DNA from: Lingula anatina
Taxonomy: Eukaryota > Animalia > Brachiopoda
DNA: 64,000 nucleotides
Reading direction: 5' to 3'
Assembly (NCBI GenBank): GCA_051362555.1
Contig: CM120645.1
Span: forward strand, 6,386,001 to 6,450,000
Every line of letters begins with the position of its first letter. Position 1 is the first letter of the stretch. Both the position numbers and the translations under genes were made by a program. The notes under the pieces were generated by a model. It saw only the letters and a list, made by a program, of their open reading frames with translations. It was not told the origin of the DNA and ran no database searches. Positions 9,907 to 45,289 of this stretch are shown here, piece by piece.

Positions 9907-10252
9907 TTAAAGGGATAATAACTCTTCGTATGAGATCTATATTTCACAATAAAAACCTTGTGAATAACTCATAGAAATATAATATATTCTGTTTTACCAC
10001 AAAAACGGCAGTTATAGCTATTTTTTCTGATATCTGAACTTGTCTTCAGACCATGTGACCTCCATTGATGGCTATACTCTGTTAAAATCTCTTAAGAGAT
10101 TTTAACCAAAAAACAAACTTTTTAGAAAAAAAACAGGGACTAACTTTGAATGTAAAAATGGATTCATTAACCATTGGTTAGTATGGGAAAATTGTTGTTT
10201 ACTCCGGGAAAATTCATTTTTTGGCCGAAATGAAGAGTTATTATCACTTTAA
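9907..10252. mobile_element. Kolobok-like MITE copy 2
   Basis: ttaa|agggataataactcttcgt ... gaagagttattatcact|ttaa; TTAA target site and purine-purine termini as in Kolobok, unlike piggyBac CCC ends. Confidence 0.85.
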
Positions 10253-10413
10253 ATAGTCATTTTCTGAAATGCCACAACAGTGGTTGAAGCTTTCAAATAG
10301 TTTTATTCACCATTGGGTTCATGCATCACTGTCTTAATAAAAAGACAAACAGAAAAGTATGTAAATTTGGTCTTTTTTTCTTACTATTTAACCAAAACAT
10401 CTTTAAATATAAA

Positions 10414-11449
10414 TCAGCAACTGTCATTCAACACTGCTGTCTTGTTACTGTCTGTTCTTTCACCATCTGTGGATACCAGTTCTTTTTCCTTTTTCTCTTT
10501 CATTTTTTCATGTTTGGCAAGCAGTTCCTTCTTTGCTGCTTCAACATGCTCCTCAAAATTCTGAAAATAAAAGTTGTTACATAAAACAAAGAGCACAAGA
10601 CATAAATAAACATGACACATTAATATTTTGCATTAACTAAAATAAGCACCTCCTATTCACTTTTTTTAACTACTTCAGTTTTCCAAATTGTTTTCTTTTT
10701 GATTACTTGTTACCATTAAAAATTTCTAAATCACTTCTTCTTTAGATACACTTCAGAGTGCACCTCCCCCAGCAACAGTTTCTTAGACTCCATTTCCAGA
10801 GATTAGATCAATCTAATTTAGATCAACCTAACTCCCTGGGGGGTTCACGCTAAATAGCTGTCAGCCAAGCGGACACGAAAGTTAATTACCCCCTTACAGC
10901 TTGTAGTAGACGGGACGGACATTTAAGCCGGATTATCTGACAGTAATCTAGTGAGACTCCCGCGGGGATAGATCGATCTAAAAGCTCTGGGAATACAGCC
11001 TTAGACAGCGTTCAGGTAAACCCATCATACAAGCTGGTTTGAGCCAACTCTGCAAGGGACTCTCCCTAAAGTGCAATCAGTGTAATCAGCTTAATTGTCT
11101 GACACGCCTCCTCAAGTGAAAGAGTTTCCTAAAGCCTTTAACTGAGCACGCACAATAGTTAATTACCCCCTTGCTGGTCGAAGAGACTTGACAAACAATT
11201 TACTGATTACATTGCACTAAGATAAAATTCCTGCTGAGTTGGATTGAAGCAACTTGTACAACGGTAAGTTAAGGGACACTTTCACACCTAACACATTGTC
11301 ATGGAATTGAAGGGTATATACTGTTTATATGTTATATACTCTTTTCTGCCTACCTCCAGTGGTTTGTAATAACTGTGTACTATTTGAGCCCCAGCAAACA
11401 TAGACAATAGCCCAGCACTGAGCAGCTTGAAATACTGGCTTGTGCTCAT
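10414..11449 (-). CDS. UQCC6: BRAWNIN / C12orf73 / UQCC6 (sloth2 ortholog), ~80 aa, 2 coding exons (11449-11354, 10560-10414)
   Basis: MSTSQYFKLLSAGLLSMFAGAQIVHSYYKPLE|NFEEHVEAAKKELLAKHEKMKEKKEKEL... resembles the BRAWNIN core (human MSTYLKMFAASLLAMCAGAEVVHRYYRP). Phase-0 GTAGG donor and ttttcAG acceptor. First exon is absent from the ORF track. Confidence 0.88.
10785..11003. mobile_element. ~220-bp interspersed MITE family (PIF/Harbinger-like), copy 1, in the BRAWNIN intron; a diverged related unit follows to ~11260
   Basis: Core tagatcgacctaactccctggggg..aaatagctgtcagcc..gttaattacccc..gattatctgacagtaatctagtgagactcc recurs at ~50915 and ~56410; degenerate TIR (tctgggaatacagcc). Superfamily is a guess. 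Confidence 0.7.
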
Positions 11450-11828
11450 CTTGGCTCGTCTTGTTCCACTCCAGGGAAATCAAAATAACTGTGGTGTCCT
11501 CACTAACTATAATGATGCAAGACTGCGGACTGTTTTCCCCCTGTCAAAAGCAGATCTTTCTGCACAAGTACAATGCAAGTCGTTTCTTCACTCTTTTTTT
11601 TTGTCAAAAGCAGGTACTCAGCAGCAGATCTTTCTTATATACTAAATCTTTTCCTTATCACAATTGTTTGTATGATGTTTTTTCCAGATTCTATGGGTTC
11701 TTCTTTCCCTTTACAGTTTGCTTTTCTTATCAACAGTTATTTCACGTGATTTTCACTGCCCTCCAAAGAAAACCTGTATTGAGAAAAATTATCTCCTTGC
11801 ACTATTTTATAAGATATCAAGTCTTTGA

Positions 11829-12781
11829 TTACTCGTCCAAAAGATACATAACATTAATTTTCTCATTGATAAGCAGACGTCTTGCTGCTGCTTTTTTGGC
11901 CATTCTTTTTGTCCATATTGAATCTGAAATAGAAAAGATAAGAACAGAATAGAAAGGTTGAGTAAAAGGTATACTTGGAAATATGGGTATTTTTACAGCC
12001 TTCCTTTCCCTACATTCAAAAGTCTTTGACTTTAAAAGGGATAACAACTGTTCATTTTGGCCAAAAAATGAAATTTCCTGGGGTAAACAGCAATTTTCCC
12101 ATACTTACCAATGGTTAATAAATCCATTTCTGCATTCAAAGTTAGTCCCTGGTTTTTTTTTTTTTCTAAAAAGGTTGTTTTTTTTGTAATTATCTCTTAA
12201 GAGATTATTACAGAGTATAGCCACCTATGGAGGTCACTTAGTCAGATGGCAAGCACATATTTCAGATTTATTGCTATAACTGTCATCTTGGTGGTAACAT
12301 AGGATATATTATATTTCTATAAGTTGCTTACAATGTATTTATTTTGAAATATAGATCTCATACGAAGTGCTGTTATCCCTTTAATGTTTGTCTTAATTTA
12401 TTCAAGAAGTGAATTTGATCAGATGTTCAATTTATCAATTTTGTAATTTACTTATAACTTTTTGAAGTTTTTTTTTTAATGAGAAAATTTCAAACACTTT
12501 GACCAAAAAGATTACAGCCAATTTTCACCTCTTATGTGGCCTCAGCTGTCACAGGTTTTTGAATGCACTTCAAGTTTCTCCTAAAAATAAATAAATAAAT
12601 AAATCAGTTTTAGGTGCATGTTACACTTACAAAAGTTAACTTCACCAACTTTCAGTTTTATCATAGTGAATTCAAGCATAGCCCCCACGAGGAAACAAAG
12701 AGGGAGAACACTGTACGCTCCAAATCTCCTTCTGCCAGGGAGGGAACGGAAAAAACTGCGTAGCAAGCGCGATCTTAACAT
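11829..12781 (-). CDS. SMIM4: SMIM4 / UQCC5 (sloth1 ortholog), 81 aa, exons 12781-12631 and 11923-11829
   Basis: MLRSRLLRSFFRSLPGRRRFGAYSVLPLCFLVGAMLEFTMIKLKVGEVNF|YSIWTKRMAKK... matches the SMIM4 pattern PGxxRFGxYxxLPxxFxxGxxxExxMIKxxVGxxxFY; phase-1 intron with GTAAGT donor. Confidence 0.92.
12032..12384. mobile_element. Kolobok-like MITE copy 3 (opposite orientation), in SMIM4 intron
   Basis: ttaaaagggataacaac ... gttatccctttaa; diverged body. Confidence 0.8.
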
Positions 12782-12789
12782 TTCTCACT

Positions 12790-13351
12790 GAAATTTAAGA
12801 ATTCAACGTGAAAAGGCAGTGCTAACCATAAATGAAACATAACGTAATCATTGCATTGCAGACTTTATAGCATTGCATAATGCCTCGTCTCGAAGTTTTA
12901 CAGGTATGTTACTATACATAATTACACACCAAAACGAGGCTTTGTTCAGGAGTGCGCCAGGTCTTTGCATAAGTGCATTTTACTGTTCTTTAACGTGCAT
13001 GTTAACAATACCACATCACTTACACATAACGAAATGAACAAAATTGTTGTGAGTATTCGATGCATTAACAAATTGTTTTAATATCATACAAATAAACTGA
13101 AAATTACATTTTAAGGGGAGGAAACGGGTCCACAAGCTTACCCATAAGGCGCAGACATCTTTAAAACCCCCCTGTCCAATCGCACGAACGATAAGTTGCG
13201 AGTGTTGGCACCGACCAATCACAGAGTACCTTTTGTGTATGTTAGGCGAAAAAGGCTGCAAGCTGTGGTTTGCAAGGAATTACAAAGGGCCTGCACAAAT
13301 ATTCGAAATTCGGGGACGTTGAGTTATTCAGTGATGCAGTACTAAGAGCAG
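12790..13351. promoter_or_regulatory. Probable bidirectional promoter SMIM4/BRAWNIN <-> TDG plus TDG non-coding first exon
   Basis: Locally CpG-richer; CCAAT boxes at 13176 and 13215; donor GCAG|GTAATA at 13351/13352; 3-codon uORF ATG CAG TAC TAA at 13334-13345. Confidence 0.6.
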
Positions 13352-14729
13352 GTAATAGTTTATAATCTAGAGAAAAAACTGATCACAATGAAGTGTATCG
13401 AGAGTCTTCTGATCACGTGTAAGCATGAGCTTGATTTGCGAGGCCCACTGTTCCCGTAGGCAAGTGAACTTCACTCACCATTGCTACTTACTAATGCAAT
13501 ACCACTATGAATGACGGTCATTTTCAACGAGTCCAAAAATGATCAGAAAGTTAAACACAGTTAATTATATTGGTCATGAAAATGCCAGTTGGTCATTTGA
13601 AAAATAATCCAATAATTTTTTTCTCAAAGACAGATTTGTTCAAATATAGGTTATAAACTCGAAGACATAACAATTATTTAGAATGTAATAAGGTGTTTTT
13701 CTTTTAATTTGTGTACTTGTAATAGAATAAGGAAAATTACTGAAGCAGTAACTAAATTTTGTGAAAGTCTCTGATGTTAAATATGACGTTGAAAAAAAAA
13801 ATGCAAAATGAAATGTGTACTGTTAAATGAAAAATACATCATAATTATAACTTCTGTGTATTATAACTATATATAAAGAAAATTGCACTGTTTTACTCGG
13901 AGTGATTATTGGCAAATGGTATTGGTGAACACTTTCTAGAAGAGATTGTTGATCTATTGTTTTTTTTATTAGACAGTTTTCATGCACACACAATGATCAA
14001 AATGCCAGATTTGACACGAGTCTTGCAATAAAATGCCTTTTATGTGTTGAATAAAATATACTGTTAATAAATGTCTTATTTTACTAGGTCCTTTACAGCA
14101 TTCATTTTTTCCTTTAATTTTTAGCAAAGATTTATATTATGTACAGAATATTAGACAGTCTAACATAGTAATCTGTTGTACTGTCATATGACGTATGTTA
14201 ATTTTTATGTTAATAGGAACATAACTGATGCAATCTTAGATTTGGGAATGATAAACTCCATGACTTGAGACTATATTTTGTCATATGAAACACGAGGTAG
14301 AATTTGGCCTCTAAGCATACTAGTCTTGTTTTTTATTAGTATTATTTGACTTTTGAAATGGTGTTAATTTAAGATTTTTTGATAATTTATAGTGTCTAAT
14401 AGCCCTACTCACATTGTTATGGTTTTTTATGCTGTTTGTTTTAGTCTAATCACTCTATAAAATTCCTAACAAACAAAGAGCATAAATAAAAATCATGAGT
14501 AGTCAAAAAAAGAGGAATGCTTTACATTTTGTGTGTCCATAATAAATGTTAAGTCATTGGTGCTGTCTTTGCTGCTTACCGCCACAACCATTAATTGTTG
14601 AACATTTTTTTTAAATGAAATTTTGATCTGTGTCTAAAGGCAAATGTGTTAAGCTTCCTTAAATCTTCTCTTTTCAGGTTATAAAGAAACAGAAGTAAGA
14701 GTTCTATTGTAGCAGAATACGAACTGGAA

Positions 14730-17700
14730 ATGGAGCAGGTCTCAAGCCCATATTTGTAAGTATAAAACCTTAAGTTAAAGGGTTAAATTGTATTTAAGTG
14801 CCTATTCTTAGAAACACTTACACATCAGTACATCATCACAGTCTTCCTGTCTGCTCTGAGTTTTATTTGTGAAGTCATAATTAAATTTTCTATGTGTTAG
14901 TATTATATTTTTAATTATATTATACATACTATTTTATATACCAAACTCTTAACGGTAGTAAAGGCAATTACTAAATCTTTTCAATGAGGGAAAAGGTATT
15001 TTTGAGTAATAATTGTAGAACATTCATACCGAGTGGTACAAACAAAATTAAATAGCAGGCTACTTTATAGTTATATTCTATGCAGTAAAAGCACCACAAA
15101 TGCTACATAGAAATATATATTTTTGTGATAAAACATCATGCATCAGAAAATTTGATAACTTTTGCCCATTGAAAAGACAGAGTAATTACTGTAGTTTGTA
15201 TCTGCCATCCTGAATTTCTAATGGTACTAGGAATATGCCTGTGTTATCAGCATGCACCTGCCATTTTTGGGAATAACAGAAGTATACAGGTAGAAGAGAT
15301 AGGATGTTCCACTAGTTACCTCTGAAACTCTGTGCTTTTGCCAATTGAATATTTTCTGTTATTTTGTTCTGAAGGGGTTCAACAGAGAAACCCATCTGTA
15401 TTGCATAATTAGATCTATTTAGTAATTATGTTTCCAGGGTGCCACCATGCACTGCGTGTCATTTGAGTAATTTTAGGAAAATTAATTTGGTCAATTAGTG
15501 CAGTCTTCTAGCAATCAGTGTCTGAATCAGAACACACATGAAGCAAATCAAAATGTTGCTCAGTGGGCAAAATTTTCTGTAATATCTGGGTAATGAAAAC
15601 CCTTTCCCATCACTGTAAATGCCAGTTATATTCCATCACAAAGTACCTATTTCAAAGGCCGTAACAAGATTTTACAATTTACTCTACATGACCAGAGCCA
15701 ATTAGTGGCTACTATAAAAGGGGTTTTATTTCTGGTTGCTAGGTAATGAAGGGTAGATAAGGTCTGCTATTGATTACTAATCCATAAACCAGTGCACAAG
15801 AAAAGAAAGAAAAAAAAATAAAGAAGAATTTTTTTTTTTTGGCAAGTCACAGTTGCAATGTTTTATGTTATGTACTTAATTACTTATAGAACATGTTTAT
15901 TTTCTATAGTTGATTTCTAGTTTTGTGTCCTCATGTTAATTTTTGCAGTCAGTAATTTTAAAACTATCCATAACACTTGGGAACTACTAGTATAGTCTAT
16001 CAGTGTTTTTGCAATGGCTTCCTTTTTGTGATTTCTTTGTGATTGATTTAAGGGAAAAAAGGGAGACATTAAGCTTCTATATTAATTTATATCCACATCT
16101 ATTCTCTAAATAGTTTGTTGCTTGGTGGCTCTGCTTGCTGACTTTTAGAAGTAAATGAATTTCTTATTTTCCATATAGCCAAAACTTCACTGTCAAACAG
16201 GAGCCAATGTGGGACGGAGTTCAGATTCCACCAATACAGTTCCCCCCTGCTGCCCCCGCAAAGAAAAAACCTGGCAGGAAAAGAAAAGTGAAGGAAGAAC
16301 CTGTAGAAAAGTAAGCATTCTTGGCTTTCAGTTCTTTGAAAATGTTCAATATGAAGAGCAGATTTTTAAAATTAATGATTTTTGCTTTAGTCAGAACTCA
16401 AACCAGTAATAGTTTGACAGTAGGTTTAGATATTTTTCATTTTCGTAAACCAAAGTAGGTTGTATAAAACATTGTAAGAAAATGGTGGATTTTTATTTTC
16501 AGCGGTGAGTCTGTAACAGTAGATGGTAAAGTGGTCAAGGTGAAACAGGAGAAAATCACAGAACACTTGAAGGTCAGAAAGAAGTATGACAGGTTTAAGG
16601 GGATGACAGAAGAGGAAGTTTTACAGAGGACACTGCCTGACCATTTGACCCATGGACTGGACATTGTCATTGTAAGTAGAAGAAAATAATTTCCATTGAT
16701 TTGATATCTAGTATGAAAAAACATTCAGAAAAATAAAATTTGACACTTTACAGGTAAGGTCTAGAAATTAAGGATTTGGATCTTTGGCATCTTTAGAGTA
16801 AAAGATGAAACAGTTTGCTCATTATTTGCAAAAATATTTTTTATGTGTCTGTGTGTGTGTGTGTGTGTGCATTGGGAATGTGGATTGAAATCCAGCATTT
16901 TTGCCAATAGAGCTGTCTATTTTTGAGGTCACTTTCTGTTGAGTTCTTTGTTAATATATTTCAGGTTGGTATAAACCCCGGCCTCACTGCAGCTTTTGTG
17001 GGACACCACTATGCAGGACCAGGCAACCACTTCTGTAAGTGTGGATTAGGAAAGAGTACTTGTTTTTAAACTTTTTTTCATTTAAAAAACAACCAACCCC
17101 AAACATGAGAACAAAATCTCTATGATATGTCCAAAAGTGTAAAGCACTAGTTTTTTTCCTTTATTTCCCAGTTCATTACAAAATTTTACCTAAAAAGTAA
17201 TGATAAGGCAGACAAGGTTGTTATTTCCCAAATTTATGAACGTGCCTATATATCATGTCTTTTTCTTTACAGGGAAATGCTTATTCCTGTCTGAATTGAT
17301 CCCAGAACAGCTGAATGCTTATGATGACTATAAACTGAAAGAATTTGGAATTGGATTCACAAATATCGTGGAAAGAACATCTCGAGGAAGTGCAGATCTC
17401 ACAAAGTAAGTAGTAACCAGGCATGAGAATTCCATGATTTTTTAATTCAGTTTTGTTGGGACCTCACACTGCCGTGGACTCCCAGCTGATTAAATATTTG
17501 ATCCATGATGAATTTTCAGGGAGTCTTTCCTAAACCAAGGCTTGTGTCTGAGTAGCAAACTCAATGTTCAAACCTTAAAAAAATGAAGTGTTTTTGCATT
17601 TTTGATTTTCTAAATTGTAGGAGATTAAAGGGATAATAACTCTTCGTATGAGATCTATATTTCACAATAAAAACAATTGTAAACAACTCATAGAAATATG

Positions 17701-28906: not shown

Positions 28907-44824
<15,918 letters not shown>

Positions 44825-45289
44825 AAACTTAACTGAAAGAAGGCCATGAAATGTCTTTTCGTTTTTGTATAAAAGGAGTTTTACAGAGGCATCTTGAGAG
44901 AAAAAATGACCTGAACACTGGGCAGAATTTAATGAATTTTTCATCATTCCATATCTTGTATTTGCCACAGTACTGCAGAGACAGTGAAAAATGATAATCA
45001 ATCTTTGATAAAAAAAAAAAAAAACAATCTTATCATGGACACATTTCTTGTGAAAACATGATTGCCTTACAATCTCATAATGATTTATTTTTTACTTTTC
45101 ATAAAGCACCACTGTTCAAACTAAAAATGTTTCCAAGGTTCATTACTTTGTGTTGAATGTATTTCTTAATCATTGTACCAGCATTTTATTGAGCTCTGTA
45201 TATACAATCTTATTACTGTACATAAATGAATGAATATATCTTTGGTTGTTTTAATTATTTTAAAGTATCCTATCCAGGATTTTCTTGTC

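What the first reader, a model, noticed from the sequence alone, without database searches (positions are those of the whole stretch)
10414..12781. Bicistronic SMIM4(UQCC5)-BRAWNIN(UQCC6) transcript with an ATG-free 379-nt spacer
Seen: the SMIM4 stop (11829) and a BRAWNIN-like ATG (11449) lie on the same strand, apparently in one exon; reading 11450-11828 I find no sense-strand ATG (no plus-strand 'cat'), whereas roughly 5-7 would be expected by chance in such AT-rich DNA. Established: both peptides act in mitochondrial complex III assembly; Drosophila sloth1/sloth2 are on one transcript while the human genes are unlinked. Inference: operon-like arrangement is kept in this lineage, and because SMIM4 itself contains internal ATGs while the long spacer has none, the second ORF is probably translated by termination-reinitiation. 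Gene predictors would likely miss ORF2 or fuse the exons.
Basis: partly seen in the sequence, partly recalled or inferred. Interest (0 to 1): 0.8.

Follow-up and report, generated by a model that had tools for sequence, protein, structure and literature searches.

The report
Two-protein mRNA with start-codon bypass
Two small mitochondrial complex III assembly genes lie in one continuously transcribed, spliced unit, an arrangement already published for flies, and a short upstream reading frame that covers the first gene's start codon here and in many other animals likely lets ribosomes skip the first gene and reach the second.

Summary
SMIM4/UQCC5 (Pfam E 8e-16) and BRAWNIN/UQCC6 (E 8e-14) share the middle exon. 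RNA reads confirm both introns and tile the 379-nt spacer on one strand without a joint. The spacer has 0 ATG against about 8 expected, but reads show an allelic AUG (two codons, weak context) at 11745 in several samples. The two-gene unit is known (fly sloth1/sloth2, Bosch 2022); 45 of 72 fetched relatives have it too, mostly with 1-202 nt, ATG-poor spacers. New here: (1) an unusually long clean spacer paired with 7 internal AUGs in SMIM4 (relatives 1-4); (2) a 5' exon whose short uORF would end on SMIM4's start codon, a layout found in 9 of 11 relative transcript lineages (2.9 expected; criterion chosen after seeing the data); (3) head-to-head linkage with TDG, the neighbour of vertebrate BRAWNIN. 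Best reading: ribosomes likely bypass SMIM4 through short ORFs and reinitiate at BRAWNIN, as on KSHV ORF35/36, more likely than after the full 81-codon SMIM4. Translation is untested, and an internal start site is not excluded.

The parts
13108..13148 (-). 5' non-coding exon, read-supported part; true start not mapped, one or two X1 reads reach beyond 13180
   Evidence: joint 13108 to 12787 in 6 reads of X5, best side 41 letters; depth bins
13138..13158 (-). uORF A: 6 codons, A at -3, ends 36 nt before the SMIM4 AUG with the observed donor; with an unobserved donor at 13142 it would be 9 codons and end on the SMIM4 start
   Evidence: presence in most mRNAs not shown
12775..13145 (-). uORF B (13145-13108 + 12787-12775): 16 codons, out of frame, stop ends at +7 of SMIM4, so it covers the SMIM4 AUG
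   Evidence: on the joint
12631..12787 (-). exon with 6 nt of leader and SMIM4/UQCC5 codons 1-50; start 12781 has G at -3
   Evidence: PF15114 E 7.6e-16; reads; 98 database relatives
11924..12630 (-). intron, 707 nt, GT-AG, phase 1, at a position shared by relatives
   Evidence: 21, 8, 3 and 9 joint reads in X1, X4, X7, X5
11829..11923 (-). SMIM4 3' coding part, stop at 11831-11829
11450..11828 (-). 379-nt exonic spacer without ATG in this assembly; no unusual fold, no Rfam family, fast-changing between samples
   Evidence: (z -0.76)
11737..11745 (-). site of an allelic two-codon uORF (AUG in part of the RNA samples, not in the assembly)
11354..11449 (-). BRAWNIN/UQCC6 coding exon 1; start has A at -3
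   Evidence: PF14990 E 7.9e-14; reads
10561..11353 (-). intron, 793 nt, GT-AG
   Evidence: 51, 10, 5 and 23 joint reads in X1, X4, X7, X5
10414..10560 (-). BRAWNIN coding exon 2 (80 codons in all); last codons not covered by reads at 95% likeness
10302..10307 (-). candidate poly(A) hexamer, use not shown
16471..17409 (+). exons of thymine DNA glycosylase (TDG), the head-to-head neighbour; plus-strand RNA begins near 13200-13290
   Evidence: PDB TDG E 3.3e-12

Best explanation
SMIM4 and BRAWNIN lie in one spliced, continuously transcribed unit, and BRAWNIN is likely made by ribosomes that first translate a short reading frame, thereby skip the SMIM4 start, and then scan on and reinitiate. Inferred steps: ribosomes that leak past the leader AUGs make SMIM4; those that use a leader uORF stop on or just before the SMIM4 AUG and pass it. 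Many of these would be caught again by SMIM4's internal AUGs, most of which open short frames (6-24 codons) that all end by 22 nt into the spacer. The long, nearly AUG-free spacer would then give freshly terminated subunits room to regain initiator tRNA and reach the strong BRAWNIN AUG. Relatives with 1-200 nt spacers would depend on the leader uORF and on few, weak internal AUGs. Shown: gene identities, splicing, continuous RNA, AUG depletion, uORF layout. Inferred: single mRNA molecules, and every step of translation.
For: Continuous stranded reads and no joint in the spacer. ATG depletion in this spacer and in relatives: 1 ATG against 13.1 expected in 20 lineage spacers, leaving out L063 whose 640-nt gap holds two extra ORFs. 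Leader uORF ending at +7 of SMIM4 with the observed donor, and the same stop with a second possible donor. Out-of-frame uORF covering the SMIM4 AUG in 9 of 11 transcript-type lineages, 2.9 expected from shuffled leaders, P 1e-4; 7 of 9 without two doubtful loci, P 1e-3; only 2 of 10 BRAWNIN starts are covered this way. By eye in the published supplement: lamprey has a 15-codon uORF starting 7 nt upstream, sea squirt a 4-codon uORF ending 1 nt upstream. BRAWNIN starts have a purine at -3 in 16 of 16 lineages, SMIM4 starts in 10 of 16. Window SMIM4 has 7 internal AUGs against 1-4 in 16 lineages. The one allelic spacer AUG is a weak two-codon frame. Tested precedent: KSHV ORF35/36 (PMC3561293, passages).
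Against: No ribosome or protein data. The 5' exon rests on 6 joint reads in 1 of 4 runs plus one or two reads in X1; the cap site is unmapped, and the chance of such a uORF in this leader is about 0.2. The overlap criterion was set after seeing the data; with coarser clusters the count is 4 of 5 (P 0.013) or 3 of 5 (P 0.13). L012 has overlapping uORFs but no BRAWNIN in 1251 nt downstream. Fly and choanoflagellate show no overlapping uORF by eye, and the fly reporter data support leaky scanning. Several genomic relatives (L025, L033, L037, L043, L046) show none within the DNA examined. Spacer length and internal AUG number do not correlate across lineages (rho 0.20, P 0.45; with the window 0.34, P 0.18). 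In KSHV an AUG 246 nt after the uORF strongly cut downstream expression, so the model needs two rounds of reinitiation here. Depth is higher over BRAWNIN than over SMIM4 in some runs (threefold in X6).
Confidence: 0.5

Rival explanations
1. A second transcription start near the SMIM4 stop gives a one-gene BRAWNIN mRNA; the spacer lacks AUG because it is an ordinary 5' leader.
For: Joint reads at the BRAWNIN intron outnumber those at the SMIM4 intron (51:21, 10:8, 5:3, 23:9); depth rises from about 5 to 17 across the region in X6; a TATA-like hexamer at 11811. Leaders being AUG-poor is established knowledge.
Against: The rise is gradual and fits 3' bias; no pile-up of 5' ends is listed in the stranded runs; the hexamer is changed in X7 and X8; relatives keep the pair with spacers of median about 20 nt, which are AUG-poor too.
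Confidence: 0.18
2. One reading: ribosomes finish the full 81-codon SMIM4, stay on the mRNA and scan 379 nt to BRAWNIN.
For: AUG depletion begins at the SMIM4 stop (last ATG 11849) and out-of-frame ATGs inside SMIM4 are not depleted (3 against 2.6); the spacer is long enough for regaining initiator tRNA.
Against: Reinitiation falls with first-ORF length (PMC10275272; PMC3561293); long-ORF cases usually need special elements and a stop-start distance under about 30 nt; no such fold or family found; it does not explain the uORFs over the SMIM4 start.
Confidence: 0.15
3. Plain leaky scanning past all upstream AUGs, as shown for the fly gene.
For: Tested in Drosophila by reporter (PMC9681215); SMIM4 start here has G at -3 and U at +4, BRAWNIN has A at -3; in relatives 1 of 35 internal SMIM4 AUGs has A at -3.
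Against: Here 8 AUGs in SMIM4, 3 with A at -3, plus 2 in the leader would have to be passed. The context bias in relatives is not significant against BRAWNIN-internal AUGs (6 of 47, P 0.23) and the search pattern favoured one residue before the invariant Met.
Confidence: 0.12
4. Internal ribosome entry or shunting on the spacer.
For: The spacer is long and A-rich.
Against: No unusual fold (z -0.76), no Rfam match at gathering score, and part of the spacer (about 11486-11604) is too diverged in X7 and X8 to align at 85% while the ORFs align; internal entry near the AUG would not need depletion over all 379 nt.
Confidence: 0.05

Closest known systems
Drosophila sloth1-sloth2 bicistronic gene (Bosch et al. 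2022, PMC9681215)
   Same: Same two families, same order and strand, one transcript; linkage also reported for choanoflagellate, sea squirt and lamprey.
   Different: Fly spacer is 5 nt and translation is by leaky scanning; here 379 nt, 7 internal AUGs and a leader uORF over the first start. The paper's main text has one hit for 'uORF' (as an analogy for sloth1 itself) and none for 'TDG' or 'mollusc'.
KSHV ORF35/ORF36 mRNA (PMC3561293)
   Same: A short uORF overlaps the first cistron's start; ribosomes would bypass it, scan several hundred nt and reinitiate on the second cistron.
   Different: Viral and tested by mutation; one natural internal Met. Here cellular, untested, with 7 internal AUGs and about 620 nt from the uORF stop to the second AUG.
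Vertebrate BRAWNIN/C12orf73 locus beside TDG
   Same: BRAWNIN next to TDG: listed side by side in chicken (PMC12937304, table row); placed at Tdg in a figure legend (PMC12455275).
   Different: In jawed vertebrates SMIM4 is on another chromosome; here SMIM4 sits between the TDG promoter region and BRAWNIN. The head-to-head orientation in human is recalled, not shown by a call.
TURBS-type termination-reinitiation of caliciviruses and influenza B (review PMC10275272)
   Same: Second ORF made after termination.
   Different: Needs stop and start within about 20-30 nt and an RNA element; the distance here is 379 nt.

Membership tests
SMIM4/UQCC5 (PF15114) | Profile match above the curated cut-off | tested here: met
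   58.2 bits against 27
BRAWNIN/UQCC6 (PF14990) | Profile match above the curated cut-off | tested here: met
   51.5 bits against 27; N-terminus about 4 residues shorter than in relatives
SMIM4 and BRAWNIN | Mitochondrial import and role in complex III assembly | not testable with these tools
   Taken from PMC9681215 and PMC12455275 (passages)
sloth1-sloth2-type bicistronic gene | Both ORFs in order on one strand with exonic spacer | tested here: met
sloth1-sloth2-type bicistronic gene | Single mRNA molecules hold both ORFs; no separate start or end between them | tested here: inconclusive
   Short reads tile the spacer; no long reads listed; 29 molecules begin at 11538 in X1 only, without a listed tail
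sloth1-sloth2-type bicistronic gene | Leaky scanning: weak first start, strong second start, few captors between | tested here: not met
   Second start strong and first moderate, but 7 internal AUGs, 3 with A at -3
uORF-bypass reinitiation (KSHV ORF35/36 type) | Short out-of-frame uORF overlapping the first cistron's AUG in the mRNA | tested here: met
   16-codon uORF on the observed joint; share of mRNAs that hold it unknown
uORF-bypass reinitiation (KSHV ORF35/36 type) | Second cistron's output depends on the uORF AUG and on its shortness | not testable with these tools
   needs reporter or ribosome profiling
TURBS termination-reinitiation | Stop and start within about 30 nt | tested here: not met
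   379 nt (rule)
Trans-spliced operon | Spliced leader added between the cistrons | tested here: not met
   No joint and no leader-like loose end among the 15 rows listed for 4 runs (3 rows not shown)

The most novel reading that the evidence does not exclude
Across much of the animal tree the SMIM4-BRAWNIN mRNA is balanced by a conserved short uORF that sits on the SMIM4 start codon and sends ribosomes on to BRAWNIN: a cellular counterpart of the herpesvirus ORF35/36 bypass. This lineage added a 379-nt AUG-cleared runway that tolerates many internal AUGs. The unit is the ancestral TDG-linked locus, and vertebrate BRAWNIN is what remains after SMIM4 moved away.
Probability: 0.35. Interest if true: 0.7.

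Novelty: new variant of a known kind. Interest (0 to 1): 0.5.

Why it matters
How animal mRNAs make two proteins in fixed ratio is mostly known from viruses. If the uORF over the SMIM4 start is functional, it gives a cellular, widely conserved and easily mutated test case of start-codon bypass, and it would revise the leaky-scanning model drawn from the fly alone. Because uORF reinitiation responds to initiator-tRNA supply (established for GCN4 and ATF4), it would also predict stress-dependent shifts in the ratio of two complex III assembly factors. The TDG linkage points to which vertebrate locus is the ancestral one. Without the mechanism, this is an ordinary new member of a published arrangement.

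Tried and rejected
No whole genome is held, so the organism's lineage was not determined. Word-indexed protein searches with the two first exons found no candidate; the full HMMER search did. No indexed RNA holder was listed; runs came by species label and were laid. One search used a wrong exon edge by one base; corrected. Fold of the spacer: not unusual. Rfam: one match at E 0.24, far under its gathering score. Short degenerate repeats in the spacer explain nothing. A fused SMIM4-BRAWNIN protein: 0 of 28 longer hits; readthrough is excluded by stops in all three frames of the spacer (10, 9, 4). Depletion of out-of-frame ATGs in relatives' SMIM4: not found (14 against 14.1). Fewer ATG-gaining variants than expected: 1 of 33 against 2.7, not significant. 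Correlation of spacer length with internal AUG number: not significant. A contrast of linked and unlinked relatives failed: in 22 of the 24 parsed loci without BRAWNIN the second SMIM4 exon was not found in the DNA held, so linkage is undecided. The published supplement was shown only to about 400 letters per sequence, so lamprey, sea squirt and choanoflagellate spacers could not be counted; its zip file could not be read. The atlas gave no answer. Paper searches listed no paper on a uORF over the SMIM4 start or on the TDG linkage outside vertebrates; judged from listings and the passages cited, in an open-access library only.

Full report
What is there. On the minus strand, ORF1 (12781-12631 and 11923-11829, 81 codons) matches the SMIM4/UQCC5 family (PF15114, E 7.6e-16) and ORF2 (11449-11354 and 10560-10414, 80 codons) the BRAWNIN/UQCC6 family (PF14990, E 7.9e-14). 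Reads of four RNA runs confirm both introns.

One transcribed unit. In the stranded runs X1, X4, X5 and X1, X6 depth is continuous from SMIM4 through the spacer into BRAWNIN on the sense strand. One search lists no joint inside 11401-11910, and none of the 15 loose ends shown looks like a leader or a tail (3 rows not shown). Limits: reads are 150 nt, so no single molecule links the ORFs. Joint reads are 1.25 to 2.6 times more numerous at the BRAWNIN intron, and X6 depth rises about threefold; 3' bias or an added start site could both do this. In X1 alone 29 molecules begin at 11538 with no tail listed; a priming hot spot is my inference, a minor 3' end is not excluded. The bin holding ORF2's stop has no depth in 3 of 4 runs at 95% likeness.

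The spacer. It is 379 nt with 0 ATG against about 8 expected; 0 of 20000 dinucleotide shuffles lack ATG, and 0.19% of minus-strand windows of that size do. Three longer ATG-free gaps exist elsewhere in the window, so such gaps are rare, not unique; the match to the spacer is what counts. It is not ATG-free in every allele. A change at 11745 creates an AUG with C at -3 that opens two codons and stops 287 nt before BRAWNIN. It is in all covering reads of X7 and X8 and in part of X5 and X6; X1 has a second change that removes it. Of 33 spacer variants read from the two tables, 1 gains an ATG against 2.7 expected, which is not significant; only 12 of 81 possible gains would open so short a frame. 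The spacer has no unusual fold, no Rfam family, stops in all frames, and is partly too diverged in X7 and X8 to align at 85%. So what is kept is the lack of AUG, not a sequence.

Relatives. A HMMER search gave 98 SMIM4-like proteins; an alignment of 12 of them fetched 72 loci from metagenome contigs. BRAWNIN follows on the same strand in 45 of 72. Of the other 27, 3 were not parsed, 22 lack the second SMIM4 exon in the DNA held, and 2 (L012, L065) lack BRAWNIN in 1.2 and about 5.7 kb. Spacers were measured in 44 of 45. One per lineage, they are 1-202 nt with 1 ATG against 13.1 expected (20 lineages, P 3e-5); the 21st, L063, has 640 nt with 13 ATG and two extra small ORFs. All 32 distinct spacers without L063 hold 2 ATG against 17.4. 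The window's spacer is thus the longest clean one, and its SMIM4 has the most internal AUGs (7 against 1-4 in 16 lineages), although the two measures do not correlate across lineages.

A uORF on the SMIM4 start. With the observed joint, the leader AUG at 13145 opens 16 codons out of frame and stops at +7 of SMIM4; the AUG at 13158 (A at -3) opens 6 codons that end 36 nt before it. A second possible donor at 13142 would make the 13158 frame end at the same stop; no joint shows it, but X1's 78 letters of depth in that bin equal two reads from 13142 and not one from 13108 (arithmetic, not an observation). In relatives an out-of-frame uORF of at most 30 codons covers the SMIM4 AUG in 9 of 11 transcript-type lineages (2.9 expected from shuffled leaders, P 1e-4), and the other two have a uORF ending 10-11 nt upstream. 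Dropping L012 (no BRAWNIN) and L006 (start moved by hand) leaves 7 of 9, P 1e-3; all transcript loci with a start give 19 of 23; BRAWNIN starts give 2 of 10; coarse clusters give 4 of 5 or 3 of 5 (P 0.013 or 0.13). The criterion was set after seeing the data and many lineages are probably related. Among genomic loci L039 has it inside the exon; L025, L033, L037, L043 and L046 show none in the DNA examined, some with an intron close upstream. In the published supplement, read by eye, lamprey has an overlapping 15-codon uORF and sea squirt a 4-codon uORF ending 1 nt before the start; fly and choanoflagellate have none that overlaps.

How it likely works. All translation steps are inferred. Plain leaky scanning, shown in the fly (PMC9681215, passages), would have to pass 8 SMIM4 AUGs, 3 with A at -3. 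Reinitiation after the whole SMIM4 runs against the fall of reinitiation with ORF length (PMC10275272, passages). The tested case that fits the layout is KSHV ORF35/36, where an 11-codon uORF over the first start lets ribosomes bypass it and reinitiate 332 nt later (PMC3561293, passages). I propose the same here: leak past the leader gives SMIM4; use of a leader uORF skips SMIM4. Subunits caught by internal AUGs mostly translate 6-24 codons, and every such frame ends by 22 nt into the spacer; the long AUG-poor spacer then lets them regain initiator tRNA before the strong BRAWNIN AUG. Against it: two rounds of reinitiation are needed, the cap site is unmapped, and the same KSHV paper shows that a distant AUG captures such ribosomes.

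Neighbourhood. The gene facing away on the plus strand is thymine DNA glycosylase (PDB E 3.3e-12), with RNA starting within about 200 nt of the 5' exon. L039 has the same TDG, SMIM4, BRAWNIN layout; it was the only hit among the 72 loci, 17 of which have 1.5 kb or more upstream, and only three TDG pieces were used as queries. Vertebrate BRAWNIN is next to TDG (chicken table row; figure legend). This suggests, as inference, that the BRAWNIN-TDG locus is the ancestral one and SMIM4 is the gene that moved.

Novelty. The two-gene unit is published. The long cleared spacer, the recurring uORF over the first start and the TDG linkage were not found in seven paper searches (listings and cited passages only; open-access library; one zip supplement unseen). 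An earlier scan note (e1-9512540) files the pair in an arthropod as the known gene, which agrees and is not independent support. Verdict: new variant of a known kind, interest 0.5.

Noticed in passing
L063:1299-1825: Two further small ORFs (60 and 70 codons, each with a hydrophobic stretch) lie between SMIM4 and BRAWNIN on the same strand, with gaps of 48, 134 and 62 nt: a candidate four-gene unit. No Pfam or PDB match, no match to the two profiles; an AATAAA lies within the region.
   Followed up: partly
window 13100-17400 and L039:717-2765: TDG head-to-head with the SMIM4-BRAWNIN unit in two lineages; BRAWNIN is beside TDG in vertebrates. Two CCAAT-type boxes lie between the two starts (about 13180 and 13220, seen).
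   Followed up: partly
window 11538: 29 molecules begin at one place in run X1 only, with no tail listed; unexplained.
   Followed up: partly
window 11743-11746: Three alleles at a CpG site: no AUG (assembly), AUG, and AUG removed by a second change.
   Followed up: yes
window 11800-11820: Runs X7 and X8 carry a diverged allele with an AATAAA shortly after the SMIM4 stop (loose end, read by eye); depth continues past it.
   Followed up: no
L012: SMIM4 transcript with overlapping uORFs but no BRAWNIN match in 1251 nt downstream.
   Followed up: partly
L043:spacer: The one ATG in a 202-nt spacer opens 33 codons that end 2 nt before BRAWNIN; BRAWNIN has an extra intron in L043 and L067.
   Followed up: no
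window 31000-44830 (+): Multi-exon gene with an AAA domain (Pfam E 4e-6); resembles IQCA1/DRC11 (name recalled, not tested).
   Followed up: no
window 10100-10320, 10760-11200, 11970-12410: Interspersed repeats in the introns and 3' flank draw reads from elsewhere on both strands; 10612-11301 is a 689-nt plus-strand stretch without ATG.
   Followed up: no
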